From a virus: 39,123 bases of DNA. The position numbers were made by a program, and so were the translations under genes. The notes beneath the pieces are model-generated. The model saw only the letters and a program-made list of their open reading frames with translations. It did no database searches and was not told where the DNA came from. Each line of letters opens with the position of its first letter. Within the stretch, counting starts at the first letter, position 1. Positions 2,418 through 36,082 of this stretch are shown in pieces. The stretch is taken from the IMG/VR virus record IMGVR_UViG_3300045988_068423, positions 1 to 39,123 of that record; one strand, given 5' to 3'.

Positions 2418-4328
2418 ATGGCATCGAGCGGAATCGTAAAAACAACCACAGTATATGACTCCTATTTCTGGGTGAAATGGGAGCTGGCCGGTCAGGATAT
2501 TGCCGGCAATAAATCCACCATCAGCTGGTCGTGCGGCATTACACCTGGACATCAGTTCTATTCCAACGCTGTAAAAATGTCCGCCGTTGCCATCAATGGC
2601 GCGACGGTGTACGCCGGTGGGACGTACTCCAACATCACCGACTACAAGGAACGCACCCTCGCTTCCGGCACCCTGACCATCGCCCACGATTCGGACGGCA
2701 GCAAGACCTTCACGGTGGCGGCCTTCAGTGGGCAGGTGTGGAAGGACACCGGCTATCTGACGGCCACGGCGGCGGCGCAGAGCTTTGCATTACCCACCAT
2801 CCCCCGCGCTACCGTGCCGGTAATTGGCGCGGTGGTCATGGGGCAAACCGTAACCATCGGCCTGCCCCGCGCAGTGTCGAGCTTTACCCACACGCTGACC
2901 TATACTTTCGGTTCGGCCTCCGGCACCATTGCCGAGGGCGCGGGCACAGAAGCGCAATGGGCGGTACCCTATGACCTTGCCGTGCAGATCCCCAACAACG
3001 CCAGCGGAACAGGCACGCTGACGTGCAAGACATACAGCGGCAGCACCCTCATAGGCACACAGTCAGTCAACTTTACCGCCACGGTGCCCAGCAACAGCAC
3101 CACACAGCCCAGCGACACCATCGCCGTGTCGCCCGTCAGCTCTTTGGCGGCTCCCTTTAGCGGGCTATACATCCAAGGGCGCACCAAGGCCAAGATCACC
3201 CACACCGCCAGCGGCAAATATGGCGCAACCATCAAATCCTATGCCGCAACAGTGGACGGGCAGACCTACACAGGGCAGGCACCCACCACGGAGATTCTGG
3301 CGACGCCTGGAACGCTGCCAATCACCGGCACGGCCACCGACAGCCGCGGCATTACCGGCACGGCTACCACCTCCATTACGGTGCTGGCTTACACACCTCC
3401 CTCTGTGGAGCGCAACACCGCCACAGACGCCCTTATCTGCGCCCGCGCACTTGCTGACGGCACGCTGGATGATGACGGCACAGCGCTCTATGTGGCGTGC
3501 AGCCGCAAGTATGCCGGCTTGGGCGGCAATAACGCCGCCTCGGTGCAAGTCCGTTATAAGGCCGAATCCGGTGAGTGGTCTGATTGGGTCACGTTTTTTG
3601 CCGAGAGCGCAAGCGGAGATAACTATGCCGGCACCATTGTGGGGATAACGCTGGCGGTAGAATCCCCGTATACCATTGAGCTGCGGGCGGTGGACAAGCT
3701 GGGTGAATCCGGCGGCACGCTGTCTTTTGCAGTCCCCACATCCGAGGCGACTGTAGACTTGGGCGAGGGCGGCAACTCTCTGGGCGTAGGCCGCCGCGCC
3801 CATGTGGGCACGGAGAAGCGGCTTGACGTTGCGTGGGACTCGACATTTGAAAAAGATGTCAAGGTAGACGGGAATTTGTCTGTTCGAGCCACAAACTTGG
3901 GCGAAACACCGCTCAAGGTGGCGGTGCTGGATAGTTCGGGTGTTCTGTATTATCGGACACCGGCGGAATTAAAATCTGATTTGCCCTATGGGGATTATGT
4001 GGTGGAGCAAGGCACATTAGGCATATGGACATATCGCAAGTGGGATAGCGGGATCGCTGAATGCTGGCTAAGCACTGAACAATCTTTAACTTGCGCAGCG
4101 CCAAAATCTTTAATGGGCGGATACTACTCTTCCGTTGATTTAGAGACGCCTTTCACCTTTGCAAGTTACCTTGGAGGGGTGGGGGATTCCGCTCTTGGAA
4201 CCGGTGTTGGCTTTACAAACGTAAGACCTCAATCCTCTAACTCGAAAATTTCGGTTTATTCGTGGGGCAACCAAAATGTTGCTACAATAAACATATTCGC
4301 TATTTACCTTTTTGGAAGATGGAAATAG
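2418..4328 (+). CDS. Putative receptor-binding / tail fibre protein
   Basis: 636 aa, Thr/Gly/Ala/Ser-rich beta-type protein after Tal. The N-terminus (SYFWVKWELAGQDIAGNKSTISWS...HDSDGSKTF) recalls siphovirus DUF859-type tail proteins; this was not verified. Confidence 0.55.
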   Translation: MASSGIVKTTTVYDSYFWVKWELAGQDIAGNKSTISWSCGITPGHQFYSNAVKMSAVAINGATVYAGGTYSNITDYKERTLASGTLTIAHDSDGSKTFTVAAFSGQVWKDTGYLTATAAAQSFALPTIPRATVPVIGAVVMGQTVTIGLPRAVSSFTHTLTYTFGSASGTIAEGAGTEAQWAVPYDLAVQIPNNASGTGTLTCKTYSGSTLIGTQSVNFTATVPSNSTTQPSDTIAVSPVSSLAAPFSGLYIQGRTKAKITHTASGKYGATIKSYAATVDGQTYTGQAPTTEILATPGTLPITGTATDSRGITGTATTSITVLAYTPPSVERNTATDALICARALADGTLDDDGTALYVACSRKYAGLGGNNAASVQVRYKAESGEWSDWVTFFAESASGDNYAGTIVGITLAVESPYTIELRAVDKLGESGGTLSFAVPTSEATVDLGEGGNSLGVGRRAHVGTEKRLDVAWDSTFEKDVKVDGNLSVRATNLGETPLKVAVLDSSGVLYYRTPAELKSDLPYGDYVVEQGTLGIWTYRKWDSGIAECWLSTEQSLTCAAPKSLMGGYYSSVDLETPFTFASYLGGVGDSALGTGVGFTNVRPQSSNSKISVYSWGNQNVATINIFAIYLFGRWK

Positions 4329-8131: not shown

Positions 8132-8245
8132 CCCAAACGATACGGCGCGGTATAGCGTAACATTTTCGCAAGAAAAACACCAATAAATACCGCACTATAC
8201 CGCTTTATTGCAACAATATACTGCGCTTTTCGAACTGGCTTACGC

Positions 8246-8290
8246 CTTTTAAGCAGGGTGTCCGGGGTTCGAATCCCCGACGGGGCACCA
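8246..8290 (+). other. attP core: 3' portion of a tRNA-Lys(UUU)-like gene (anticodon loop to CCA)
   Basis: Reads CTTTTAA (anticodon loop, UUU), GCAGG, GTGTC, CGGGG-TTCGAAT-CCCCG (T arm), ACGGGGC-A-CCA. No matching 5' half lies upstream. It is adjacent to the integrase. Confidence 0.75.
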
Positions 8291-8336: not shown

Positions 8337-9431
8337 TTATTTTTTATTTGTTAGTAACGTGTTAGTAACAGCATCCACAAGTGTCTGCGCGTCGATGTGC
8401 GTATATATGTTTGCGGTGGTGGAATAATCTGCGTGTCCGAGTATTTTTTGCAGCATTTCCGGTGGCAATCTCTCTTTTACCGCCCGGGACGCGTATGTGT
8501 GGCGTGTTGCGTGCGGGGTCTTGCGCTCTATGCCCAGCCGGTCAAGAAGTGGGTAAAAATCACGCCTGCGGAAGTTCGCCGGTACTTTTTGCCCATCGTA
8601 GCCGGATAACAGCAGCTCCCCCGTTGCTCGCTTCGCAAAGTAGGCAAAGTATTGTTTCCCCTCCGGGCGAATGGGGATAATTCGGTTTCGCCCGGCTTCT
8701 GTTTTTTCGCCGCCGATCACATAATCGCCGTGATAGTCTGCCAGCGGCAAAGAAAACAATTCCCCGATACGCATGCCCGTTGCCAGCAGCATCAAGACAA
8801 TTTTCGCCGCATCGCTGTTGTCGAATTTCAATTTACGGATATCTTCCTCCGTGAAGATGTCCTTTTCTTTTTTTATATTTTCTGGCAGCCGGACAAATTT
8901 TGCAAAATTTGTTGTGCAGATTTCCTCTCGGATTGCCCAGTTCGACATCTGCGTTATCAGCTGCTTGTACTTGTTCACGGTGGAATGGCTCTTGGCCATG
9001 TGTGGGTCAAGTACGGCCTGAAAGTCTGCGGTGCGGAGATCGCGAAACTTTTTCCCGTGCAACGGCGTAAATATGCGGTAGGCGTTGTTATATGATTCTA
9101 TCCCCTGCTTGCCGATTTCCTTGTAATGCTCCTCTTTCCACGCATCAAAGACTTCCGCAAAGGTCATATTATACCGCTCCGTTAAGCTCTTGCCGTTCAA
9201 CCGCTCCAAAGCGTCCAAAGCGTCCGTTTTGCGCTCATAGTGCCCGATAATCACTTTGTTTTTCGCGGCCACCCAAGGCGATTTTCTACGCCCCGCCAGT
9301 TTGTATACAGTTCCGGTGCCGTTTGCCCTCTTCGAAGCCTTGCGCCGCTCTGTTACCTGTTTTTTGCCACAGATATGGCAATATACAGCACCCGGGACAA
9401 GAGTTGTTCCGCATTTAATGCAGTTGCTCAT
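8337..9431 (-). CDS. int: Tyrosine integrase with N-terminal zinc-ribbon
   Basis: MSNCIKCGTTLVPGAVYCHICG zinc ribbon. C-terminal HATRHTYAS...LGHADYSTTANIYTH matches the R-H-R-Y catalytic signature. ATGA overlap with the upstream gene. Confidence 0.9.
   Translation of the reverse strand: MSNCIKCGTTLVPGAVYCHICGKKQVTERRKASKRANGTGTVYKLAGRRKSPWVAAKNKVIIGHYERKTDALDALERLNGKSLTERYNMTFAEVFDAWKEEHYKEIGKQGIESYNNAYRIFTPLHGKKFRDLRTADFQAVLDPHMAKSHSTVNKYKQLITQMSNWAIREEICTTNFAKFVRLPENIKKEKDIFTEEDIRKLKFDNSDAAKIVLMLLATGMRIGELFSLPLADYHGDYVIGGEKTEAGRNRIIPIRPEGKQYFAYFAKRATGELLLSGYDGQKVPANFRRRDFYPLLDRLGIERKTPHATRHTYASRAVKERLPPEMLQKILGHADYSTTANIYTHIDAQTLVDAVTNTLLTNKK
8350..8369 (+). repeat. attP arm-type repeats (GTTAGTAAC x2, 11-nt register), inside the int 3' end
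   Basis: GTTAGTAAC at 8350-8358 and 8361-8369, in the same orientation as 8113-8131. Confidence 0.55.
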
Positions 9432-10009
9432 TTTTCTGCTTCCTCGCCTTGTTTGGTTTTTTTGTCCGCCGCAAGAGTGGACAATAGCACGGATGTAAGT
9501 ACGCCGATACCCACCGCCAAAAGCGCAATGAAAATCCATGCAATCGTTCCGGCTGTCTTGGATCGGATCAGGCCTTCGTCCTGCACACGGTAATCAAGCG
9601 CCACATACCATGTAACTATACCCAGCAGGATAGCGGACAGCAGCGATGTGATATACAGCATCGTGCGCTGCCGCCTTGCTTTTTTCTTCTGCTCCTCTGC
9701 TGATTTAGACAGCTCATCGTATGCGCCCTCTATCCGTGCAATGCGCACATCCTCGTCATGGACTTGCTGAAGCTGCTTGATTTGGTCTTGCGCCAAAACA
9801 ACCTCTACAATGCCAAAGTAACGGTCCATAGACACCCCCAGCACCTTGCAGATGGGGCCAGCCGCATACACGCCTGGTGCTTTCGATGTGGATGCAAAAA
9901 AGTTGTTAACGCTGGACAAAGGCACACCGGATTGGTCTGCTATCTCCTGCGCCGTGATGTGCTGTTCCAGTTTTGCGTCCCGGCAAGTGTCCTGCAACGA
10001 TTTCTCCAT
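9428..10009 (-). CDS. XRE-type HTH protein with C-terminal transmembrane segments
   Basis: ITAQEIADQSGVPLSSVNNF is an HTH. Two C-terminal TM helices follow (LYITSLLSAILLGIVTWYV; IAWIFIALLAVGIGVLTSVLL). Start chosen at the RBS-preceded ATG. Confidence 0.65.
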   Translation of the reverse strand: MEKSLQDTCRDAKLEQHITAQEIADQSGVPLSSVNNFFASTSKAPGVYAAGPICKVLGVSMDRYFGIVEVVLAQDQIKQLQQVHDEDVRIARIEGAYDELSKSAEEQKKKARRQRTMLYITSLLSAILLGIVTWYVALDYRVQDEGLIRSKTAGTIAWIFIALLAVGIGVLTSVLLSTLAADKKTKQGEEAEK

Positions 10010-11116: not shown

Positions 11117-11406
11117 AAAACACCAACCAAATTTGTCACAATTACCAAAATGCATATTTTTCACGATTACCTATTGCAAATCGCGAGAATATGAGGTATC
11201 TTTATATCAGGCCCACCGGAAAAGGGTACAAAAACACCAGCCCCCACGAAAGCGGCTTTTAACAATTTCTTTTGGCGAAGGTATTGTACCGCAGTTTTTG
11301 TGGAGTGTCAAGTGTGAAACCTCATGAATATGAGTTTTTCGGTGGGCGTTGACTGCGGCGGGGATAGAAAAACCGCCCCGTGCGGTAACACGAGGCGGCT
11401 GTCCGG

Positions 11407-11538
11407 TCACTTAGACCGGCGGTTGGACAAGGCAGACGCTGCAATCGTTTTGGTGGTCTTGCTGGTCTTTCCGCTGCTCAAAGCTTTTGACGCCTTGGAC
11501 GCAACGGTCTTGCTTGTCCGCACAGAGTTTTTGGCCAT
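11407..11538 (-). CDS. Small Lys/Ser/Thr-rich basic peptide (43 aa)
   Basis: AAAGGAGGTG RBS. MAKNSVRTSKTVASKASKALSSGKTSKTTKTIAASALSNRRSK. It lies downstream of a near-consensus promoter. Confidence 0.55.
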   Translation of the reverse strand: MAKNSVRTSKTVASKASKALSSGKTSKTTKTIAASALSNRRSK

Positions 11539-24816: not shown

Positions 24817-25072
24817 TCCGGCTAAGGCATACGAGCTGGGCCGCCTGGATGGCACCAAACAATGCATGGACAATGTTTCCTGCGTACTGCTGGACAAGTG
24901 CGGATTCCATGTGCGGGAGGAAACGGCGGACGAGCACGACACCCGTAGCCTGGAATACTTACAGCAGTGCCTTGTGGAGCTGGTGGAGGCCAAAAACAAC
25001 GGCTATGTAAAGATGGCGGACATAGAAAAGGCCCTGCGTGGCGAATATAAGATGGTGAACAGTGCGGAGTAA
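24779..25072 (+). CDS. Hypothetical protein
   Basis: 97 aa. Start taken at the RBS-preceded ATG 24779. Confidence 0.55.
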   Translation: MLKRANGRPVPNNPAKAYELGRLDGTKQCMDNVSCVLLDKCGFHVREETADEHDTRSLEYLQQCLVELVEAKNNGYVKMADIEKALRGEYKMVNSAE

Positions 25073-25082
25073 AGGAGGGAAA

Positions 25083-25547
25083 ATGAGCAAAAAGGCGACG
25101 CTGCCTTATGATGTGCGGTTGGAGTGCATTGCTTATGTGCGCGGATATCCGCGCCGAGTGCGGGCGTATCGCGAGGCCCGGGCGGAGATCCTGGGAGGGA
25201 CGCATAGCGCTACGGAGGGAATGCCAAGAGGACAAGGCGCCGGCAGACCCGCCGAGAGCAAGGCGGAGCAGCTTGCAGCCATAGAGAACTGGCCGGAAAC
25301 CAAGAAAATGCGGGCTGTGGAATATGCCATAGACCGCTGCGGGCTGGATTTGGAGAGCGAGAGCGTCCGCAAGCAGCTTACACAGGGGATCATGCGCAAC
25401 TGTCAGGGCAAGCACAAGTATTCCCGAAGCAGGATTATCGTGCCGGGGATCAGCGAAGCGACATTCCGACGGAGGAAAGAGATATTCCTGTTCGATATCG
25501 CTACATATTGTGGTTTCGATAGGAAAGATGAGCCAAATTCCACTTAA
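25083..25547 (+). CDS. Putative late-gene transcriptional regulator (RinA/ArpU-like by position)
   Basis: AAAGGAGGG RBS. It is the last protein gene before the packaging module. The assignment is by position only. Confidence 0.4.
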   Translation: MSKKATLPYDVRLECIAYVRGYPRRVRAYREARAEILGGTHSATEGMPRGQGAGRPAESKAEQLAAIENWPETKKMRAVEYAIDRCGLDLESESVRKQLTQGIMRNCQGKHKYSRSRIIVPGISEATFRRRKEIFLFDIATYCGFDRKDEPNST

Positions 25548-25559
25548 TGATGTGCTACA

Positions 25560-26270
25560 ATAGGTACAGTGGATGATAGGACATGGTCATTCACGCGATT
25601 TCCCAATCATCACTTTTCCTCCCTTCTATGCGCCGCCGGTATTGGGCGCACCGCGCAAGCGGACTCGGAAACGGGCGTACCGGCACAAACAGCCTGTAGG
25701 GAAACCTATGGGCTGTTGTTATATGCAGGCGTAGCTCAGTCGGTAGAGCATTTGGTCGCTGGTTCGAGTCCAGCCGCTTGCACAAGAGGCCGGGTAGCGC
25801 CCGGACACTGTGAGACCGTTCGTCGTGGCTCACATGGAAATGACAATGGTCGCTGAAAACTGCACGGTGGGCGCTTGGAAGTCTCTTTTGGAGAGAATGG
25901 GGCGCAGCGTAATGGTGGCGATGGAGCCAACCCGTTGTGTGACAATCTAAGCGGCAAGACGGCCAATATGCGGCATAGGTGCCCCGTAAGGGGAGACCAC
26001 AGCGAGTGACGGGGACTTTCCTCGAAGCGCTAAAGCAGGGCAGGACTGCAATGCCGCACCAAAAGCGGAGAGCCGCTGCCGTGGGCAAATGGCATAGCGC
26101 CTGCCCGGAAGTGCGGCTATACCGCTCAGAAGTGAGCTGTGGAAAAGACATTGCCACCTGCTGGCAAACTGTGTAACCCATGTTTGAGAGCTTCCAGAAG
26201 GCCGCATGGGAGGGGAAAGACTGTTACTGTAGCCAAGGGGTGGGGGCTGGTGACAAACAAGGGAGGAAAA
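25560..26270 (+). ncRNA. Candidate large structured ncRNA (ROOL/GOLLD-like class suspected, unverified)
   Basis: About 720 nt with no RBS-preceded ORF. Dense nested helices with GNRA loops on the plus strand, plus long-range pairings. Helix coordinates are listed in the findings. Confidence 0.55.
25725..25782 (+). ncRNA. tRNA-like element lacking the anticodon arm
   Basis: GCAGGCG-TA-GCTCAGTCGGTAGAGC-A-TT-TGGTC-GCTGGTTCGAGTCCAGC-CGCTTGC-A. Acceptor stem, D arm and T arm are intact, but 2 nt replace the 17-nt anticodon arm. No encoded CCA. Confidence 0.7.
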
Positions 26271-26275
26271 CGGCT

Positions 26276-26776
26276 ATGGAAATCATAAAACCCGGCAAAG
26301 TCAGGAGAGTAAAGCTGGAATGCCCGGAATGCGGGTGTGAATTCGCCTGTTCTCCGGTAGAAATGGTACGCAGATACGGAACTGTGTTTGCTAAGTGTCC
26401 ACAGGAGGGATGTGGCAGAAGCGTGGAAGTGCCAAACGGAATCCCCGAGTACATCGAGCCTGCAAACCATACTGCCATTGGAACGATCACTGTGGTGCTG
26501 TCAGGGGCAACCGTTACAGAAGATCCTGTAGGCGATGAGCGGTATATCACAAGGGTGACGAATGTATCGAAGGGAGTTGCAGAGCATATCATAGCACTGG
26601 GCGCAGATACCAGCATCTCCCTGATGATTGATGGCAAATACCCGGAGCGATTCTACATGGCAAATACCGGGATGCTTATCGCCTACAAGGCCCACGATGG
26701 GAAACTCTACACGAATAGGAGTGACACATGTAATGGCTACAAAGAAACCTACCGCCATCGCAAAAGCAAAGGATAA
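26276..26776 (+). CDS. Hypothetical protein with N-terminal zinc ribbon
   Basis: GGGAGG RBS. Contains CPECGC...CPQEGCG. Confidence 0.6.
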   Translation: MEIIKPGKVRRVKLECPECGCEFACSPVEMVRRYGTVFAKCPQEGCGRSVEVPNGIPEYIEPANHTAIGTITVVLSGATVTEDPVGDERYITRVTNVSKGVAEHIIALGADTSISLMIDGKYPERFYMANTGMLIAYKAHDGKLYTNRSDTCNGYKETYRHRKSKG

Positions 26777-27302
26777 CCGACCGGCGACTGGCAGAGGCGG
26801 CAAAGGAAACTTCCCTTCCTGTCTTCCTGACCTTAGCAGCGATAAAGATAGAGCCCTTGTATCTCGCCTCCTTACAGAAGCCCTTGTAGAATACAGACAG
26901 CCAAAGGTAAAGAGTGACGAAGAACTGACGGAGAGAATAAACGACTATTTTGCCCGGTGCGCTGAGACAGGACAGACCCCAACAGTAGAGGAACTATACA
27001 TGTCAACAGGCTACGCAATTAGCACGGTTAAGGACTGGCTATCCGGAAGACGCAAGGGATTTAGCCCCGAAACAGCGTCCATTATAAAAAAAGCCAAGGG
27101 GTTTATGCAGACTTTTGACGCAAAACTTGTGGTTTCTGGGAAGCTGGAATTCCTTGCCTATTGCTTCCGTGCCAAGAACTATTACGGCATGGTGGACAAG
27201 CAGGAGATGGTTTTGACGCCGAACCAGCCGCAGATTGAGGGCTTGACTCCCGAACAGCTCCAGCAGAAGTACATAGAAGCCAGCGACTTTGATGCAAAAT
27301 GA
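26733..27302 (+). CDS. terS: Terminase small subunit
   Basis: ERINDYFARCAETGQTPTVEELYMSTGY...FRAKNYYGMVDKQE fits the gp3-type small terminase pattern. AGGAGTGA RBS. Confidence 0.7.
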   Translation: MATKKPTAIAKAKDNRPATGRGGKGNFPSCLPDLSSDKDRALVSRLLTEALVEYRQPKVKSDEELTERINDYFARCAETGQTPTVEELYMSTGYAISTVKDWLSGRRKGFSPETASIIKKAKGFMQTFDAKLVVSGKLEFLAYCFRAKNYYGMVDKQEMVLTPNQPQIEGLTPEQLQQKYIEASDFDAK

Positions 27303-30972: not shown

Positions 30973-31077
30973 ATGGATAAAAAGGTTTTGGCAATTTTAG
31001 TTGGTGCTATTTTGATTATTGTTGGCGTAGTTTTTGCGTTTCAAGGCGGCGGGGCGTTGGGATACTACGCCGGATAA
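30973..31077 (+). CDS. Small membrane peptide (34 aa)
   Basis: AAAGGAGG RBS. MDKKVLAILVGAILIIVGVVFAFQGGGALGYYAG. AT-rich codons. Confidence 0.5.
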   Translation: MDKKVLAILVGAILIIVGVVFAFQGGGALGYYAG

Positions 31078-31147
31078 CAAGGACGGAAAACCAAATAGAA
31101 TGGACTACCGATTTTCCGGCAGTCCATTTTTTATTGCAGGAGGACAA

Positions 31148-32800
31148 ATGGATTATCGGAAGATTGCGGAAAGCATCAAAAACCGCATAAAGAAAACGCA
31201 TGACCGGGAAGCCTACAAGGATTTGCTGGCGTTGTGCATTGGGTACGAAGCGGAAGATTTTGCTGCGGCGCACCAGTTAAATTCCGAAGTCCGAAAGATG
31301 ACCTCCGAGGCACTTCGTAACGGAAACCCAAAAGATGCGGAGTATTTCTACACCCTACATAAGCAGGCCATGCTGTTTGACGCGCCGCATGATTTCGATA
31401 CCTTCCTGCTGTATGTGGAGATGGACAGAAAGCCGGAGAAGCGGTTTTATGCTCCACGCAGGCGGTATCTAAGACCTATTGTGCAGGGGTATCAAGATGT
31501 CCTTGACGGCAAATTGAGGCTGCTGACCATTTCGCTTCCGAAAAGAGCCGGGAAAAGCCAGCTGGGAATCAATTTTATCAACATGGTTTCCGGGAGAAAC
31601 CCGGATAAATCGTCCCTTATGGAAGGCACGGGCGATGATCTTGTGCGAAGCTTCTATAACGGCTGTCTGGAATATCTGCAAACGCCAAACGAGTATTTGT
31701 TCTACGATGTGTTCCCGGATGCTCCATTGGTGCAGACCAACGCAGACACGAAAATTATCAATCTGCGGTCTAAATCCAGATTCCCCACGGTCATGTGCCG
31801 GTCGATTGACGCACGGCAGGTTGGCTTGTCGGAGGCAACCAATGTCCTTTATTTAGATGACTGTGTGGAGGGCAGAGAGGAAGCGAAAAACCGTCAACGG
31901 CTGGATGATAAGTGGGAAGTAATTTCCGGCGATATTTTAGGCCGTGCCATCGAGGGTACGCCTATTGTGGCCACCGGGACGAGATACTCCCTATATGACC
32001 CAATAGGGCATTTACAGGAAGAAGCGCAAAAAGGCGGCTGGACATGGAAAGCCATTGAAATCCCCGCCCTTGACCCAATTACAGACGAAAGCAATTATGA
32101 GTATGAGCGGGAGGGTAAAAAGGTTTTTACCACCGCTTATTTCCGCGAGCAGAGAGAGCTTCTGAGCACGGAACAGTTTGAAAGCGAATTCCAGCAGCAG
32201 CCATTTGAAGCAAAAGGGCTGCTTTTCAATAAGTCGGAGCTGAACTATTTCTTTGAACTGCCGGTAGATCGTGACCCGGATGCAATCATTGCCGTGGCAG
32301 ACACCGCAGAAAGCGGGAAAGACAGCACGGCGATGCCCGTTGCGGCCTTATATGGAGAGGAAGTCTACATCGTGGATGTGGTGTACGATGATTCTCCCGC
32401 AGAGGTCACAAAGCCGGAATGCGCAAAGTGCCTGATTGACAACAAAGTGGGCGATGCACTGTTTGAATCCAACAACGCCGGTATGTATTTTGCGAGAGAT
32501 GTTGCAGAAATCGTCAAAAACGCCGGATTTAACACCAGCATACGGACAAAAAGGACGATTTCCAACAAGCAGACAAGAATTGAGTTTGCATCGGATGGAA
32601 TCAAGAAGAATTTTTACTTCAAGCATCCGTCCACATACAAGAGAGGGTGTCAATACTGGGGATTCATGCAGGAAGTGACCACCTATGTAAGAAGCGGCAA
32701 GGTGGCGCACGATGACGCGCCTGATTCCTTGTCGTTGCTGGAGAACGAAATCCGAAACCGCATCAGCGGCAAGATTGAGATATTCAAAAGACCGTTTTAA
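31148..32800 (+). CDS. terL: Terminase large subunit (headful/pac type likely)
   Basis: GCAGGAGG RBS. Walker A LPKRAGKS, Walker B-like LYLDD, and a C-terminal nuclease region. Confidence 0.9.
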   Translation: MDYRKIAESIKNRIKKTHDREAYKDLLALCIGYEAEDFAAAHQLNSEVRKMTSEALRNGNPKDAEYFYTLHKQAMLFDAPHDFDTFLLYVEMDRKPEKRFYAPRRRYLRPIVQGYQDVLDGKLRLLTISLPKRAGKSQLGINFINMVSGRNPDKSSLMEGTGDDLVRSFYNGCLEYLQTPNEYLFYDVFPDAPLVQTNADTKIINLRSKSRFPTVMCRSIDARQVGLSEATNVLYLDDCVEGREEAKNRQRLDDKWEVISGDILGRAIEGTPIVATGTRYSLYDPIGHLQEEAQKGGWTWKAIEIPALDPITDESNYEYEREGKKVFTTAYFREQRELLSTEQFESEFQQQPFEAKGLLFNKSELNYFFELPVDRDPDAIIAVADTAESGKDSTAMPVAALYGEEVYIVDVVYDDSPAEVTKPECAKCLIDNKVGDALFESNNAGMYFARDVAEIVKNAGFNTSIRTKRTISNKQTRIEFASDGIKKNFYFKHPSTYKRGCQYWGFMQEVTTYVRSGKVAHDDAPDSLSLLENEIRNRISGKIEIFKRPF

Positions 32801-32803
32801 GGG

Positions 32804-34261
32804 GTGACGCTATTGAGACAAATGTTTGGCAGAAAGGTCATTTATTCGGATGCTGCCGAGGTAAACGAGGGTAATATTGCAAATATCCTGCAAAAAGCAA
32901 TGGTTGTCCACGCCGCAAACCGGGCGGACATGGAATATTTATACAGGTACTATAAAGGCGACCAGCCTATCCTTGCGAGAGTAAAGGATGTGCGCCCGGA
33001 GATTAACAACAAGATTGTCGAAAACCGGGCAAACGAAATTGTGTCCTTTAAGGTTGGCTATTTGATGGGCGAACCTGTTCAGTATGTCAGCAGATCGGCC
33101 GATGAAAAAACCGCCGAGATGGTGACAAAACTGAACGATTATGTTTTGTCCGAGGACAAACCGGCAAAGGATAAGGAATTGGCGGATTGGTTCCACATCT
33201 GCGGAACGGCTTATCGCATGGTCATGCCGGACACACCGGAAGATGAAGATGAAGCCCCGTTTGAGATTTATACCCTTGACCCCCGGTTTTGCTTTGTGGT
33301 GTATTCCGTGCAGCTGGGAAATCCTCCCCTTATGGCGGTCAAGTATGTCAAGATGGAAGACGGGACAGTCGTTTTCAGCTGTTACACAAAAGACCACTTC
33401 TATGAAGTGACCGACACATGGAAGATTATTCGCAGTGAGCCGCAGATTTTGGGGATTCCCATTATTGAGTACCCGGCAAACCGTGCGAGACTTGGCGCGT
33501 TTGAAATTGTTCTGAATCTTCTGGATGCAATCAACAATGTGGAGTCCAACCGCATGGATGGCGTGGAGCAGTTCGTGCAGTCCTTGCTTTTGTTCCATAA
33601 TGTGCGCATATCCAAAGAAGAATATGCCAATCTGCGGCAGGACGGTGCGATTCAGTTTGAGGACATTGACCCGCAGAAGAAAGCGGAAATCAAAAACCTT
33701 GTCACGGAGCTGAACCAGACGCAGACACAGACCCTTGCGGACAATCTGTATAACACAGTGCTGACCATCTGCGGGATGCCCAACAGAAACGGAGGGTCTT
33801 CCACCTCTGACACCGGATCTGCAGTCATCATGCGTGACGGCTGGTCTGCGGCAGAAGCAAGAGCAAAGGATTCCGAGCTGGTGTTCAAGCGTTCCGAAAA
33901 AGAGTTTTTGAAAGTGCTTTTGCGGATTTGCAATGACTTGAGCGATTTGTCTTTGAAACTGTCTGCAATCGAGATCAGATTCACCCGGCGGAACTATGAG
34001 AACATTTCCGAAAAGGCAAATGTGCTGGTAACCATGCTGGGCAATGGAAAAATTGCGCCACAGCTTGCGTTTACGCATTGTGGCCTATTCAGCGATCCGC
34101 AGCTGGCATACAAGATGAGCATGGAATATGTCGAGGAAAACGGAGGGAACAATGGAATTAACGCTGGAGATGGTACGGGCGATCAACGAAATTCTCAGGA
34201 GCCGCAATCAAGCGGAGGTGAAAGTGGAGAACGGGAAGATCGTAGTAATCGAAGTGCGTAG
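32804..34261 (+). CDS. Portal protein (SPP1 gp6-like)
   Basis: 485 aa, directly after terL. Sequence pattern and acidic C-terminal tail fit a portal. The start is uncertain (GTG 32804 or ATG 32822). Confidence 0.85.
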   Translation: MTLLRQMFGRKVIYSDAAEVNEGNIANILQKAMVVHAANRADMEYLYRYYKGDQPILARVKDVRPEINNKIVENRANEIVSFKVGYLMGEPVQYVSRSADEKTAEMVTKLNDYVLSEDKPAKDKELADWFHICGTAYRMVMPDTPEDEDEAPFEIYTLDPRFCFVVYSVQLGNPPLMAVKYVKMEDGTVVFSCYTKDHFYEVTDTWKIIRSEPQILGIPIIEYPANRARLGAFEIVLNLLDAINNVESNRMDGVEQFVQSLLLFHNVRISKEEYANLRQDGAIQFEDIDPQKKAEIKNLVTELNQTQTQTLADNLYNTVLTICGMPNRNGGSSTSDTGSAVIMRDGWSAAEARAKDSELVFKRSEKEFLKVLLRICNDLSDLSLKLSAIEIRFTRRNYENISEKANVLVTMLGNGKIAPQLAFTHCGLFSDPQLAYKMSMEYVEENGGNNGINAGDGTGDQRNSQEPQSSGGESGEREDRSNRSA

Positions 34262-35056: not shown

Positions 35057-36082
35057 ATGGCAGATACTTTTGCTACCAGCTTCGGAGTGCTGAATTACTC
35101 CGGTATGCTCTTCAACAAGGGCAACACCCGCACCCCTCTGTCTTCCATCATCGGAAGCCGGGCAAAAACCACCAACCATGTCGAGTTCGTCACAGGTCAG
35201 GAATACAGCTCTGCCGGCGGCGCCCAGCCCGCTATCAGCGAGACCGCGTCCCTGACTGCACCTGATGCAACCGTGGTGACCCGCACTCAGAAAACCAATG
35301 TCACGCAGATTTTTCAGGAGACCGTAGGTGTTTCCTACGCCAAGATGTCCAACATGGGCACTCTGTCCGGCGTGAATATCGAGAATCAGCAGGCAAACCC
35401 CATCAATGAACTGGATTTCCAGGTGGCCGCAAAGATTCAGAAGATCGCCCGGGATATGGAGTTCACCTTCATCCAGGGCGCATACAACAAGGCCGCGGAC
35501 GATTCCAAGATCAACAAGACCCGTGGCCTGACCACCGCCATTACAACCAATGTTACCGCTATGGCATCCAAGCCCCTGGGCCTGTGGGATGTAGCCGACA
35601 TGGTGAAGAAGATTTACGGAGCAAACGCCCCCACAAATGGCCTGGCGCTGTGGTGCGATGCCGTGACCATGTTCCAGATCAATGCGGATGCCGTGCAGAA
35701 CGGTCTTACCGTGGTTCCCGCCGCCCGTGAGATTAACGGTATCGCGCTGTCCAGCGTAATCACTCCCCTTGGCGTGGTTTATCTGTACCTGGGCGAGTGC
35801 CTGCCCGCCGGCACAGCACTGCTGCTGAATCTGGATGTTATCGCCCCTGTGTACCAGCCTGTTCCCGGCAAGGGCAACTTCTTCCTGGAGCAGCTGTCCA
35901 AGACCGGTGCTGGTGAAAAGTATCAGCTGTTCGGTCAGGTAGGTCTTGACCACGGCCCCGAATGGTATCATGGCAAGTTCACCGGTATTTCCACCGATTT
36001 CACTGCGCCCACCTACAGCCGCAGCGTGTTTATTGCCAATGACGCAAGCAATCCTGTAAACACCAAAGCTGTGACCGGCTGA
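35057..36082 (+). CDS. Major capsid protein (HK97-fold, SPP1 gp13-like)
   Basis: AAAGGAGAATGAATTAAA RBS. 341 aa with highly biased codon usage. It lies after the scaffold gene. Confidence 0.85.
   Translation: MADTFATSFGVLNYSGMLFNKGNTRTPLSSIIGSRAKTTNHVEFVTGQEYSSAGGAQPAISETASLTAPDATVVTRTQKTNVTQIFQETVGVSYAKMSNMGTLSGVNIENQQANPINELDFQVAAKIQKIARDMEFTFIQGAYNKAADDSKINKTRGLTTAITTNVTAMASKPLGLWDVADMVKKIYGANAPTNGLALWCDAVTMFQINADAVQNGLTVVPAAREINGIALSSVITPLGVVYLYLGECLPAGTALLLNLDVIAPVYQPVPGKGNFFLEQLSKTGAGEKYQLFGQVGLDHGPEWYHGKFTGISTDFTAPTYSRSVFIANDASNPVNTKAVTG

What the first reader, a model, noticed from the sequence alone, without database searches (positions are those of the whole stretch)
25725..25782. 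tRNA-like element with the anticodon arm precisely missing
The 58-nt sequence has three intact tRNA parts. The 7-bp acceptor stem is GCAGGCG/CGCUUGC with one G-U pair. The D arm is canonical (GCUC-AGUCGGUA-GAGC). A variable-loop remnant (UGGUC) and a canonical T arm (GCUGG-UUCGAGU-CCAGC) follow, ending in discriminator A. Only UU replaces the 17-nt anticodon stem-loop, so it cannot decode. Such a molecule could still be recognised by RNase P/Z, the CCA-adding enzyme, T-loop modifiers, or tRNA-targeting defence nucleases acting as a decoy. It could also be a structural module of the surrounding large RNA, as in the tRNA-like domains of bacterial Y RNAs. These functions are inference.
Basis: partly seen in the sequence, partly recalled or inferred. 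Interest (0 to 1): 0.7.

Follow-up and report, generated by a model that had tools for sequence, protein, structure and literature searches.

The report
Phage tRNA body without anticodon arm
This 58-base phage sequence is a real, selected "tRNA without its decoding arm". It belongs to a widespread group of such RNAs in phages that I could not find described, and they probably imitate tRNA towards enzymes rather than read codons.

Summary
Window 25725-25782 (+) matches the Rfam tRNA model end to end at 49.4 bits, with the 17-nt anticodon arm replaced by 2 nt. ARAGORN calls no tRNA.

It is not a one-off pseudogene. Two relatives carry the same element, and one of them differs only by a compensatory A26:U44 to U26:A44 swap. 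The same architecture recurs in more than 100 unrelated viral contigs and 45 bacterial genomes, and in cultured phages of Lactococcus (P335 group), L. brevis and Polaribacter. That architecture is a 7-bp acceptor stem, a D arm, a 26:44 pair closing a 2-nt turn (CUUG, UUUA or GNRA-like), four bases at positions 45-48, and a T arm.

A model built without the window element scores it at 77 bits.

Here the element is one cassette in a 730-nt non-coding leader upstream of the small terminase gene. Two of the cassettes, this element and module C, are closed by an acceptor-like stem and preceded by AUAU|G.

Most likely (inferred, not shown) it is excised by RNase P and RNase Z and given a CCA tail. 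It would then act as a non-decoding tRNA mimic, and its excision would also cut the leader. Function is untested.

No paper describing the class was found; records call it "tRNA-OTHER" or "unspecified tRNA".

The parts
25725..25782 (+). Anticodon-arm-less tRNA-like RNA, 58 nt (whole element)
   Evidence: Rfam tRNA 49.4 bits with 17 nt replaced by 2 nt. Class model R1, built without it, 77.3 bits. Stable fold.
25725..25731 (+). Acceptor stem, 5' strand GCAGGCG. Pairs with 25775-25781 (CGCUUGC). G4-U69 wobble.
   Evidence: All seven acceptor pairs covary across the class.
25734..25749 (+). D arm GCUC-AGUCGGUA-GAGC, with G15, G18, G19 and A21
   Evidence: G15, G18 and A21 are conserved at 90% or more across the class, at positions the search pattern did not fix.
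25750..25753 (+). Cap that replaces the anticodon arm: A26-UU-U44, a Watson-Crick 26:44 pair closing a 2-nt turn
   Evidence: The relative L006 has U-UU-A, a compensatory change and the only difference in 58 nt. In the class the pair is CG 20, UA 9, AU 2, GC 1 and U-G 0; the remaining 7 are mostly G..A, as in GNRA loops.
25754..25757 (+). Positions 45-48 (GGUC), what remains of the variable loop. C48 is the partner of G15.
   Evidence: C48 at 90% or more.
25758..25774 (+). T arm GCUGG-UUCGAGU-CCAGC
   Evidence: The three inner T-stem pairs covary.
25775..25782 (+). Acceptor stem, 3' strand CGCUUGC, plus discriminator A25782. Followed by CAA, so no CCA is encoded.
   Evidence: Discriminator is A in 72 of 117 class members and C74 is present in 64 of 117.
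25718..25724 (+). Leader GUUAUAU ending in U(-1). Inferred RNase P cleavage site between 25724 and 25725.
   Evidence: Sequence. The same AUAU|G junction precedes the other cassettes. Cleavage itself is inferred.
25688..25717 (+). 13-bp hairpin with a GAAA loop, followed by a U-rich tract. Terminator-like, or a 3' protective hairpin for the upstream RNA.
   Evidence: Fold. Conserved in 80 of 82 relatives. Covarying counterpart in L002.
25635..25684 (+). 5' domain: three-way junction with two GNRA-capped hairpins (GCAA, GAAA)
   Evidence: Fold z = -3.3. Present in all relatives. Hairpins are swapped or covary in L002, L006 and L155.
25553..25561 (+). Extended -10-like TGcTACAAT, just after the stop codon of the upstream gene. 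Possible start of the leader transcript.
   Evidence: Read by eye (conserved in L155). Not found by the consensus scan. Weak.
25783..25969 (+). Cassette B: conserved ends (CAAGAGGCCGGGUAGCGCCCGGACA ... GUGACAAUCUAAGCGG) around a variable middle
25970..26061 (+). Cassette C: 92-nt cloverleaf-like RNA with a 7-bp acceptor-like stem and an encoded ACCA
   Evidence: Fold -41.3 kcal/mol, z = -3.96. Homology borders coincide with the stem and the ACCA, and flanks differ between relatives. No Rfam hit.
26062..26275 (+). Cassette D, plus the Shine-Dalgarno region of the next gene
   Evidence: Conserved in 46-77 of 82 relatives.

Best explanation
The element is a functional member of a widespread class of phage and prophage RNAs that I could not find described. 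These are tRNA 'bodies' of 55-61 nt that keep the acceptor stem, D arm, T arm and tertiary-core nucleotides. The anticodon arm is replaced by a minimal cap, in which positions 26 and 44 pair and close a 2-4-nt turn.

In this temperate siphovirus it is one cassette of a roughly 730-nt non-coding leader. The leader lies between a lineage-specific gene and the packaging genes.

Proposed mechanism:
1. The leader is transcribed on the + strand.
2. RNase P cuts between U25724 and G25725.
3. RNase Z cuts after A25782, and the CCA-adding enzyme adds CCA.
4. The product is a stable L-shaped RNA of about 61 nt that shows the tRNA elbow and acceptor end but cannot reach the decoding centre.
5. It acts in trans as a tRNA mimic for proteins that read tRNA shape. 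The leading candidate is a decoy or competitor for host tRNA-targeting toxins or defence enzymes that act on the acceptor end.
6. Its excision also severs the 5' regulatory part of the leader from the downstream RNAs.

Shown: the structure, its selection, its recurrence and its genomic contexts. Inferred: transcription, processing, CCA addition and the trans-acting role.
For: **Structure and selection**
- Full-length tRNA-model match with the arm missing.
- 97.6% of cells paired, and a covariation score of 0.70 against 0.145 in shuffles, in 39 class members. All 7 acceptor pairs covary.
- The 26:44 pair covaries (CG/UA/AU/GC, never U-G). The linkers are the stable turns CUUG, UUUA, CAUG and GNRA.
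- The window and L006 differ only by a compensatory 26:44 swap.
- An identical copy lies in L481, in a diverged background.
- G15, G18, A21 and C48 are conserved although the search pattern left them free.
- Frequent G-U pairs argue for an RNA read from this strand.

**A discrete class rather than a continuum of decay**
- In one database-ordered sample, the length between the D and T stems peaks at 11-12 nt (25 hits, all with intact acceptor stems). There are none at 14 nt.

**A trans-acting gene product**
- 30 of 103 copies lie among same-strand tRNA genes, some spaced 3-11 nt apart like members of an array.
- Lactococcus P335-group phages carry a 61-nt version with its own TATAAT promoter, between the lysin gene and the lysogeny genes.
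- L004 has a TTGACA/TACAAG promoter directly upstream.

**Shape-only recognition**
- Acceptor sequences are unconstrained. G3:U70 is present in only 10 of 82.
- The -1 base distribution resembles that of real tRNAs in the same loci, with U the most frequent.

**Established knowledge**
- RNase P accepts tRNA-like substrates that lack the anticodon arm (PMC5499578, on plant t-elements).
Against: - There are no expression, processing or binding data of any kind.
- In this lineage the armless form is rare (window, L006, L481). The closest relative, L128, lacks the cassette altogether, so it is dispensable.
- In relatives the same slot holds a true tRNA-Gln, tRNA frames with odd inserts, or a tRNA-like with a degenerate D region. 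That fits a purely cis-acting 'any RNase P substrate will do' role equally well.
- The class was collected with a pattern that fixes most of the D stem and the T loop, so conservation there is circular. The acceptor filter (6 of 7 pairs or better) also biases the pairing statistics.
- No tRNA-related enzyme or defence gene is consistently linked to the element.
- No specific target of a decoy is known.
Confidence: 0.4

Rival explanations
1. Purely cis-acting processing signal, like a plant mitochondrial t-element or tRNA punctuation. The tRNA shape only recruits RNase P and RNase Z to cut the leader at this point, and the excised 58-mer is a by-product. The cut would separate the 5' domain, with its anti-Shine-Dalgarno tract, from the downstream cassettes and the late mRNA.
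For: - Among relatives, what is kept at this slot is an acceptor/T-arm helix preceded by AUAU|G and followed by CAAGAGGCCGGG. The D and anticodon regions vary freely, and a real tRNA-Gln can take the place.
- In at least 30 unrelated Firmicutes phage loci the element lies between a late transcriptional activator gene and the HNH or small-terminase genes. That would put it in the late-operon leader.
- In 5 actinophage loci it follows the major head gene.
- t-elements that lack the anticodon arm are known RNase P/Z signals (PMC5499578).
Against: - A processing signal needs only the acceptor/T-arm minihelix. Yet the class keeps a perfect D arm, the tertiary nucleotides and a covarying 26:44 cap.
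- Copies inside tRNA arrays, and copies with their own promoter in accessory positions, have nothing to punctuate.
Confidence: 0.3
2. Unexcised structural domain of one large ornate RNA spanning about 25563-26275. The tRNA-like module would serve as an architectural or protein-recruiting element.
For: The whole 729-nt region folds well below shuffled controls (z = -4.3). A long-range pairing of 25614-25625 with 26259-26270 closes it in the minimum-energy fold. Most of the region is conserved in relatives. In L003 the armless module sits on a 16-bp extended stem with no free ends.
Against: - There is no GOLLD, ROOL, HEARO or other Rfam match, even at E up to 10.
- Cassettes are gained, lost and reordered between close relatives, with borders exactly at the acceptor-like stems.
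- The same element stands alone in other phages.
Confidence: 0.1
3. An aminoacylatable carrier. The armless RNA would be charged by a synthetase that ignores the anticodon (LeuRS via A73 and the D/T tertiary fold, or AlaRS via G3:U70). It would then deliver or sequester an amino acid, EF-Tu or the synthetase outside normal decoding.
For: - E. coli tRNA-Leu variants lacking both the anticodon and variable arms are still leucylated, and need A73 and the D/T-loop interaction (PMC9976931, its reference 53).
- The window element has A73 and an intact elbow. A73 is present in 72 of 117 class members.
- Danklef, and the common relatives' tRNA-like, carry G3:U70 with A73.
Against: Identity elements are not conserved across the class. 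G3:U70 occurs in only 10 of 82, the discriminator varies (A, G, U, C), and every acceptor pair covaries freely. The window element has A3-U70 and G4-U69, which is not the alanine signal.
Confidence: 0.08
4. A decaying tRNA pseudogene or recombination scar with no function.
For: The slot is a hot spot of rearrangement, and the armless form is rare in this lineage. The L006 linker equals a clean 32-nt deletion of the pseudoknot-bearing variant. Databases label such elements tRNA-OTHER or 'unspecified tRNA'.
Against: - Compensatory 26:44 change between L006 and the window.
- 100% identity in L481 despite flanks only about 82% identical.
- The same capped architecture in hosts from four phyla, with full covariation.
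- A discrete length mode.
- The true attP-type tRNA fragment of this phage lies elsewhere, at 8244-8290 next to the integrase.
Confidence: 0.05

Closest known systems
Plant mitochondrial t-elements (e.g. A. thaliana nad6; PMC5499578)
   Same: Degenerate tRNA-like structures with an acceptor/T-arm mimic and no anticodon arm. They are embedded in longer transcripts and cut by RNase P and/or RNase Z.
   Different: t-elements are organellar and typically have decayed D arms. They are known only as cis signals for mRNA ends. The phage class keeps a canonical D arm, the core tertiary nucleotides and a covarying 26:44 cap. It also occurs as a stand-alone gene and inside tRNA arrays.
Engineered minimalist tRNAs and minihelices (tRNA-Leu lacking the anticodon and variable arms; Ala/His minihelices; reviewed in PMC9976931)
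   Same: Almost the same design as the laboratory construct: acceptor, D and T arms without the anticodon domain. These constructs are still recognised by RNase P and by some synthetases.
   Different: Those are artificial. This is a natural, conserved gene, and its charging is untested.
mascRNA/MALAT1-type tRNA-like processing modules (Rfam RF01684; comparison from my own knowledge)
   Same: A tRNA-like fold inside a long non-coding transcript. It is excised by RNase P and RNase Z, tailed with CCA, and defines the ends of the flanking RNA.
   Different: It is eukaryotic and retains a short anticodon-like arm. There is no sequence relationship and no Rfam hit here.
Bacterial Y RNA YrlA tRNA-like domain
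   Same: Mimics the tRNA elbow with T-arm and D-arm equivalents and does not decode.
   Different: The topology is opposite. In YrlA the 5' and 3' ends lie in the Ro-binding stem that takes the place of the anticodon stem, and the acceptor mimic is closed. Here the ends form the acceptor stem and the anticodon side is capped. No Rfam hit.
tmRNA tRNA-like domain
   Same: Acceptor plus T arm without an anticodon arm. Processed by RNase P.
   Different: tmRNA has G3:U70, a reduced D region and an mRNA-like domain. None of these is present, and ARAGORN finds no tmRNA.
Irregular tRNA polycistrons and tRNA-Other (PMC5389517); T4 stable RNAs 'species 1 and 2' in the tRNA cluster (from my own knowledge)
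   Same: Non-canonical tRNA-like RNAs co-transcribed in arrays, probably matured like tRNAs, of unknown non-translational function.
   Different: Those retain anticodon arms or have unrelated folds. None has the capped, arm-less 58-nt architecture.

Membership tests
Canonical decoding tRNA (Rfam RF00005) | 7-bp acceptor stem plus discriminator, D arm, and T arm with a T-loop | tested here: met
   model positions 1-71 aligned at 49.4 bits, above the gathering score of 29.
Canonical decoding tRNA (Rfam RF00005) | Anticodon arm (5-bp stem with a 7-nt loop) carrying an anticodon | tested here: not met
   17 model positions replaced by 2 nt. ARAGORN calls no tRNA in the window.
Armless tRNA-like class (defined here) | 55-61 nt: acceptor 7 bp, D arm, 26:44 pair closing a 2-4-nt turn, four nt at positions 45-48, T arm, no anticodon arm | tested here: met
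   Model R1, built from 36 members without the window or L006, scores 25725-25782 at 77.3 bits, E about 1e-27, over positions 1-58 of 58. Real tRNAs score 30-59 bits.
Armless tRNA-like class (defined here) | Base pairs maintained by compensatory change, including 26:44 | tested here: met
   for the class. Window A26:U44 against L006 U26:A44.
Plant-type t-element / tRNA punctuation signal | tRNA-like structure lacking the anticodon arm, inside a longer transcript next to other RNAs or mRNA | tested here: met
   The position in the 730-nt non-coding leader upstream of the small terminase gene was tested and fits. Transcription itself was not shown.
Plant-type t-element / tRNA punctuation signal | Endonucleolytic cleavage by RNase P and/or RNase Z that defines the RNA ends | not testable with these tools
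   Needs end mapping or in vitro cleavage. Only the features a substrate needs are seen (U at -1, 7-bp stem, elbow, no CCA).
tmRNA tRNA-like domain | G3:U70 alanine identity and a linked tag-encoding mRNA-like domain | tested here: not met
   A3-U70 and G4-U69. No tmRNA by ARAGORN or Rfam.
Bacterial Y RNA (YrlA) | Ro-binding stem carrying the 5' and 3' ends, with a closed acceptor mimic; match to the Rfam model | tested here: not met
   The ends form an open acceptor stem. No Rfam hit at E up to 10. Whether a Ro (TROVE) gene is present in the window was not examined exhaustively.
GOLLD / ROOL / other large ornate RNAs | Match to the family covariance model | tested here: not met
   No hit in window 25000-26800 at E up to 10, nor in 16 other armless loci or in phage Lb.
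Viral 3' tRNA-like structures (TYMV type) | Pseudoknotted acceptor arm at a genome or mRNA 3' end | tested here: not met
   Plain 7-bp acceptor helix, internal position, DNA phage. No Rfam hit.
Neutral tRNA pseudogene | Unique to one genome; substitutions do not respect pairing; deletion lengths are unstructured | tested here: not met
attP tRNA fragment | Only the 3' part of a tRNA, adjacent to the integrase gene | tested here: not met
   The element has both halves and lies 16 kb from the integrase. A true 3' tRNA fragment ending in CCA lies at 8244-8290, next to the integrase at 8337-9539.

The most novel reading that the evidence does not exclude
Phages infecting at least four bacterial phyla encode a dedicated family of minimal 'elbow-plus-acceptor' RNAs, that is, tRNAs stripped of the anticodon arm and sealed with a tetraloop-like cap. 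These would be matured like tRNAs and act in trans as non-decoding tRNA mimics. One candidate role is a decoy that soaks up host toxins or defence enzymes attacking the tRNA acceptor end (MenT/AbiEii-type nucleotidyltransferases, CapRel-type pyrophosphokinases, GNAT acetyltransferases). In some gut phages, including this one, the late leader would be a whole array of such RNase-P-bounded cassettes, including a new 92-nt CCA-ended cloverleaf.
Probability: 0.3. Interest if true: 0.85.

Novelty: new variant of a known kind. Interest (0 to 1): 0.68.

Why it matters
Phage tRNAs are currently explained either by codon usage or by replacement of host tRNAs cut by anticodon nucleases. A conserved tRNA that cannot decode fits neither explanation. 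It points to a third use of the tRNA fold by viruses: pure molecular mimicry of the acceptor and elbow surface.

The class is easy to test because it is present in cultured systems. These include Lactococcus lactis P335-group prophages such as bIL309, bIL286 and TP712, L. brevis phages Lb, LBR48 and 3-SAC12, and Polaribacter phage Danklef.

It is nature's version of the 'minimalist tRNA' used in synthetase and RNase P biochemistry. Annotation pipelines now either drop it or label it tRNA-OTHER.

If it is a decoy, it would be a new RNA-based anti-defence principle. If it is only a processing signal, it would extend tRNA punctuation and t-element logic to phage late operons.

Tried and rejected
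- **Known RNA families.** Rfam gathering and permissive scans of the window region found only tRNA. Scans of 16 other armless loci, phage Lb and the Lactococcus loci also found only tRNA. There was no GOLLD, ROOL, Y RNA or tmRNA at the element.
- **A protein gene on the other strand.** The 196-aa minus-strand ORF at 25591-26181 has junk-like composition and is not kept open in relatives.
- **Primer-binding-site idea.** No complement to the 3' 10-14 nt of the element exists elsewhere in the window.
- **attP idea.** The real attP-like tRNA fragment lies at 8244-8290, next to the integrase.
- **Armless forms with another D stem (GCGC).** All 9 hits were ordinary tRNAs matched through their anticodon arm.
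- **Identity of the upstream gene.** There were no Pfam, PHROG or NCBIfam matches, and 177 homologues are all unnamed. I therefore cannot say that it is a late activator, although the equivalent gene is one in 30 other loci.
- **Host.** No named genome among the fetched loci is related to the window, so the host was not determined.
- **Actinophage-type element against cultured phages.** No match.
- **Literature.** Eight full-text searches found no description of the class. The only trace is 'a predicted unspecified tRNA' in a Lactococcus prophage map (PMC3757294).

**Caveats**
- The search pattern fixes much of the D stem and the T loop.
Full report
**1. The observation**

Window 25725-25782 (+) reads GCAGGCG-UA-GCUC-AGUCGGUA-GAGC-A-UU-U-GGUC-GCUGG-UUCGAGU-CCAGC-CGCUUGC-A. 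Rfam's tRNA model aligns end to end (positions 1-71) at 49.4 bits against a gathering score of 29. The only defect is that the 17 anticodon-arm positions are replaced by 2 nt. ARAGORN reports no tRNA or tmRNA anywhere in the window. The isolated 58-mer folds into acceptor, D and T helices (-23.1 kcal/mol, 72% of the ensemble, z = -2.25).

**2. Genomic setting**

- The window is a temperate siphovirus. It has a tyrosine integrase (8337-9539, minus strand) and a small terminase (26628-27302). It also has a large terminase (31034-32800), an SPP1-type portal (32804-34261) and an SU10-type capsid protein (35057-36082).
- The element lies in a 729-nt gap (25548-26276) between a + strand gene of unknown family (25062-25547) and the genes preceding the small terminase.
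- The gap is non-coding. Its only long ORF (196 aa, minus strand) has junk-like composition and is not kept open in relatives.
- The gap folds far better than shuffled controls (z = -4.3).
- No Rfam family other than tRNA matches it, even at E up to 10.
- The phage's attP-like tRNA fragment is elsewhere, at 8244-8290 next to the integrase.

**3. Relatives of this phage**

I fetched 80 viral contigs through the upstream protein (83-99% identical), plus L002, L006 and L481. The 5' 170 nt of the gap is present in all of them, and most downstream parts in 46-77 of 82. The slot occupied by the element is a mosaic:

- Most relatives carry a 57-nt mini-cloverleaf. It is followed by a different tRNA-like that has a canonical acceptor stem (G3:U70, A73) and T arm but a non-canonical D and anticodon region.
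- Others carry exactly the window's tRNA frame with a 36-nt pseudoknot in place of the anticodon arm. The pseudoknot's AAGGG/CCCUU pairing covaries to AAUGG/CCAUU.
- Others carry the frame with a 24-nt insert or with a pseudo-anticodon arm.
- L002 has a genuine tRNA-Gln(UUG) in the slot.
- The closest relative, L128, has no cassette there at all.

Only three genomes have the armless form. The window and L481 are identical over 58 nt, although their upstream flank is only about 82% identical. L006 differs at exactly two positions, A26 to U and U44 to A, which keeps a Watson-Crick pair. This copy is therefore rare in its lineage and dispensable, but it is neither unique nor decaying.

**4. The same architecture elsewhere**

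Across those loci and the ones fetched earlier the pattern gave 127 hits. Of these, 103 have at least 6 of 7 acceptor pairs and an intact T stem, giving 82 unique sequences with a modal length of 58 nt. A few of the remaining hits are ordinary tRNAs matched through their anticodon arm.
The genera include Levilactobacillus, Lacticaseibacillus, Weissella, Streptococcus, Corynebacterium, Microbacterium, Glutamicibacter, Prevotella, Faecousia and Oleispira.
- *Cultured phages.* Polaribacter phage Danklef has a 58-nt element annotated 'tRNA-OTHER, Undet(NNN)'. L. brevis phages Lb, LBR48 and 3-SAC12 also carry one. At least 22 Lactococcus phage records, including the P335-group members bIL309, bIL286, P335 and TP712, carry an unannotated 61-nt version.
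- *Covariation.* In an alignment of 39 members, 97.6% of cells are paired (70.4% in shuffles). The covariation score is 0.70 against 0.145, and about 0.1-0.16 with slid partners. All seven acceptor pairs and three T-stem pairs change on both sides.
- *The 26:44 pair.* The pair flanking the 2-nt linker is C-G in 20, U-A in 9, A-U in 2, G-C in 1 and never U-G. Most exceptions are G..A. The linkers (CUUG, UUUA, CAUG, CACG, GUAA, GCAA) are tetraloop-like turns. My reading, from general knowledge of the CUUG and GNRA loop families, is that they seal the end of the D stem.
- *Tertiary nucleotides.* G15, G18, A21 and C48 were not fixed by the search pattern, yet they are conserved at 90% or more.
- *Strand.* G-U pairs are frequent, so the fold is selected on this strand as RNA.
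- *Independent membership test.* A covariance model built from 36 members without the window lineage scores the window element at 77.3 bits. That is 28 bits more than the general tRNA model gives, while real tRNAs reach 30-59 bits.

**5. Discrete class or tail of decay?**

In one database-ordered sample that allowed 4-21 nt between the D stem and the T-stem GG, the counts by length were as follows:

| Length (nt) | 10 or less | 11 | 12 | 13 | 14 | 15 | 16 | 17 | 18 | 19 | 20 | 21 |
|---|---|---|---|---|---|---|---|---|---|---|---|---|
| Hits | 4 | 14 | 11 | 8 | 0 | 6 | 5 | 1 | 1 | 6 | 8 | 17 |

All 25 hits at 11-12 nt have intact acceptor stems. The armless form is thus a separate mode. There are also minor modes in which the anticodon arm is trimmed to a 3-bp stem with a tetraloop, for example CUC-GCAA-GAG.

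**6. Contexts of the class**

- *tRNA clusters.* 30 of 103 copies lie within 1.5 kb of same-strand tRNA genes, some 3-11 nt from a neighbour like members of an array.
- *Late-operon leader.* In 30 loci the upstream gene is a phage late transcriptional activator (phrog_2198 Alt-like, phrog_248, phrog_36). In many of these the downstream genes are an HNH endonuclease or the small terminase. Phage Lb shows DUF722 protein, then a 666-nt non-coding gap holding the element and further tRNA-like pieces, then DUF2829, small terminase and large terminase. The window has the same position relative to its small terminase, although its upstream protein has no recognisable family.
- *After the capsid gene.* In 5 actinobacterial loci the element follows the major head gene.
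- *Own promoter.* In the Lactococcus phages examined (bIL309, D2950) it has its own TATAAT promoter. In D2950 it lies between the lysin gene and the repressor, an accessory position. In prophage bIL309 it lies after the lysin, about 165 nt from the prophage end. L004 has a TTGACA/TACAAG promoter directly upstream.

These are the places where phage tRNA genes are usually found. The first and last contexts argue that the RNA itself is a product, not only a cleavage signal.

**7. The neighbours in the window**

The gap looks like an array of cassettes.

- A possible extended -10 (TGcTACAAT, 25553-61) is followed by a CU-rich tract, then a three-way junction with GCAA and GAAA hairpins (25635-84). 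A 13-bp GAAA hairpin plus U-rich tail follows (25688-25717).
- Next comes the leader GUUAUAU and the armless element.
- Cassette B follows (25783-25969).
- Cassette C (25970-26061) is a 92-nt cloverleaf-like RNA closed by a 7-bp stem and followed by an encoded ACCA (z = -3.96). Its homology borders in 33 sequence variants coincide with that stem and the ACCA, while the flanks differ.
- Cassette D follows (26062-26275).

The armless element, cassette C and the relatives' cassettes in this slot are preceded by AUAU|G (or CAC|G in some relatives), with U or C at -1. Such a junction is what an RNase P substrate array would look like. This reading is an inference.

**8. Mechanism**

*Shown:* the fold, its selection, its recurrence and its contexts.

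*Inferred:*
- Transcription with the leader.
- RNase P cleavage at 25724/25725. The supporting features are U at -1, a 7-bp stem and an intact elbow. The -1 base distribution in the class (U 38%, C 26%) resembles that of real tRNAs in the same loci (U 42%, C 28%).
- RNase Z cleavage after A25782, because CAA rather than CCA follows, and then CCA addition.

The product would display exactly the part of a tRNA that shape-reading proteins see, namely the acceptor end and the elbow. It would have nothing that can reach the decoding centre.

Acceptor sequences vary freely and no synthetase identity set is conserved. G3:U70 occurs in 10 of 82, and the discriminator is A in about 61%. I therefore favour shape-only recognition over charging.

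My best explanation (0.4) is a processed, stable, trans-acting tRNA mimic. The leading sub-hypothesis is a decoy for tRNA acceptor-end-targeting toxins or defence enzymes. Cutting of the leader would be an automatic side effect.

The main rival (0.3) is that cutting is the whole function, as in plant t-elements (PMC5499578). It explains why almost any acceptor/T-arm module can occupy this slot in relatives. It does not explain the conserved D arm, tertiary core and cap, nor the copies in arrays or with their own promoters.

Minor rivals are a domain of one large RNA (0.1), an aminoacylated carrier in the manner of minimalist tRNA-Leu (PMC9976931; 0.08), and a pseudogene (0.05).

**9. Novelty and limits**

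Eight full-text searches found no description of such a class. The only trace is 'a predicted unspecified tRNA' drawn on a Lactococcus prophage map (PMC3757294), together with 'tRNA-OTHER' labels in GenBank records. I rate it a new variant of a known kind (tRNA-like RNAs and tRNA mimics).

Limits:
- There are no expression or biochemical data.
- The host is unknown.
- The search pattern fixes much of the D stem and the T loop, and the acceptor filter inflates the pairing percentage. The 26:44 pair, G15, G18, A21 and C48, and the length distribution are free of that bias.

Noticed in passing
window 25970-26061 (+): A 92-nt cloverleaf-like RNA (cassette C). It has a 7-bp acceptor-like stem GCGGCAU/AUGCCGC, three arms (one capped by GUAA), and an encoded ACCA. 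The fold has z = -3.96. It is present in about 72 of 82 relatives, its homology borders lie exactly at the stem and the ACCA, and L144 shows compensatory changes. No Rfam match. It may be a second, unknown tRNA-like RNA.
   Followed up: partly
window 25614-25625 and 26259-26270 (+): The CU-rich tract UUUUCCUCCCUU near the 5' end of the leader is perfectly complementary to AAGGGAGGAAAA. That sequence is the Shine-Dalgarno region of the next gene (ATG at 26276). The two pair in the minimum-energy fold of the whole gap. L006 keeps an 8-nt version. This may be long-range masking of the ribosome-binding site, which excision of the tRNA-like would uncouple.
   Followed up: partly
window 25553-25724 (+): A conserved 5' domain. 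It consists of an extended -10-like TGcTACAAT, a three-way junction with GCAA and GAAA hairpins (and a possible pseudoknot UGCGCC/GGCGCA), and then a 13-bp hairpin with a U-rich tail. It looks like a riboswitch or attenuator, or a short terminated RNA. No Rfam match. Present in all 81 relatives.
   Followed up: partly
window 8244-8290 (+): The 3' part of a tRNA (T arm CCGGGGUUCGAAUCCCCGA followed by CGGGGCACCA) and then a terminator hairpin. It lies directly beside the tyrosine integrase gene (8337-9539, minus strand). This is probably the attP core for integration into a host tRNA gene.
   Followed up: partly
L134 3704-3794, also L133, L141, L177, L197, L199, L200, L204 and L002 5388-5477: The same tRNA frame as the window element, but with a 36-nt insert (UUUAUCGCACGAAGGGAUAUGCGAUUGAAUGCCCUU) in place of the anticodon arm. 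The insert can form an H-type pseudoknot, and its AAGGG/CCCUU pairing covaries to AAUGG/CCAUU. ARAGORN miscalls these as 91-93-nt tRNA-Val, Ala or Thr.
   Followed up: partly
L155 3637-3693 and 3704-3777: The commonest fill of the slot in relatives. First comes a 57-nt mini-cloverleaf (GCCGUG...CACGGC-A-CAA). Then comes a tRNA-like with a canonical T arm and acceptor stem carrying G3:U70 and A73 (the alanine identity signal), but with a non-canonical D and anticodon region.
   Followed up: no
L330 (Lactobacillus phage Lb) 3427-4092: A 666-nt non-coding gap between the DUF722 late-activator-like gene and the DUF2829 and small terminase genes. It holds an armless tRNA-like (3500-3557), a partial tRNA lacking the acceptor stem (3697-3754, model positions 9-63) and further T-arm-like pieces. 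This parallels the window's leader. No GOLLD hit.
   Followed up: partly
L328 1494-1554 (prophage bIL309); L329 1994-2054 (phage D2950): Lactococcus P335-group phages carry an unannotated 61-nt armless tRNA-like with its own TATAAT promoter. In D2950 it lies between the lysin gene and the repressor; in prophage bIL309 it lies after the lysin near the prophage end. This is a tractable system for experiments.
   Followed up: partly
L003 11561-11618, with tmRNA_permuted at 11194-11484: An armless tRNA-like whose acceptor stem continues into a 16-bp helix, so it has no free ends. It lies about 80 nt downstream of a permuted (two-piece) tmRNA gene in a viral contig.
   Followed up: no
L453, L430, L454, L400 and others: A second group of phage tRNA-likes in which the anticodon arm is trimmed to a 3-5-bp stem capped by a tetraloop (e.g. 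CUC-GCAA-GAG, AAUUC-GACG-GAAUU). They too have no 7-nt anticodon loop.
   Followed up: no
L264, L266, L295, L262, L305, L257 (Cytophagales / Flammeovirgaceae genomes): Tandem runs of tRNA-like units in which a D arm and a T arm recur head to tail (...GGTTCGAATCCTTCTC-TTTAAGA-TAGCTCAATGGTAGAGCAACAG...). They lack ordinary acceptor closure. This is an unexplained repeat family.
   Followed up: no
window 25591-26181 (-): A 196-aa ORF antisense to the structured RNAs. It is rich in Arg, Cys, His and Pro and is not conserved as an ORF in relatives. A gene caller would probably report it as a false gene.
   Followed up: yes
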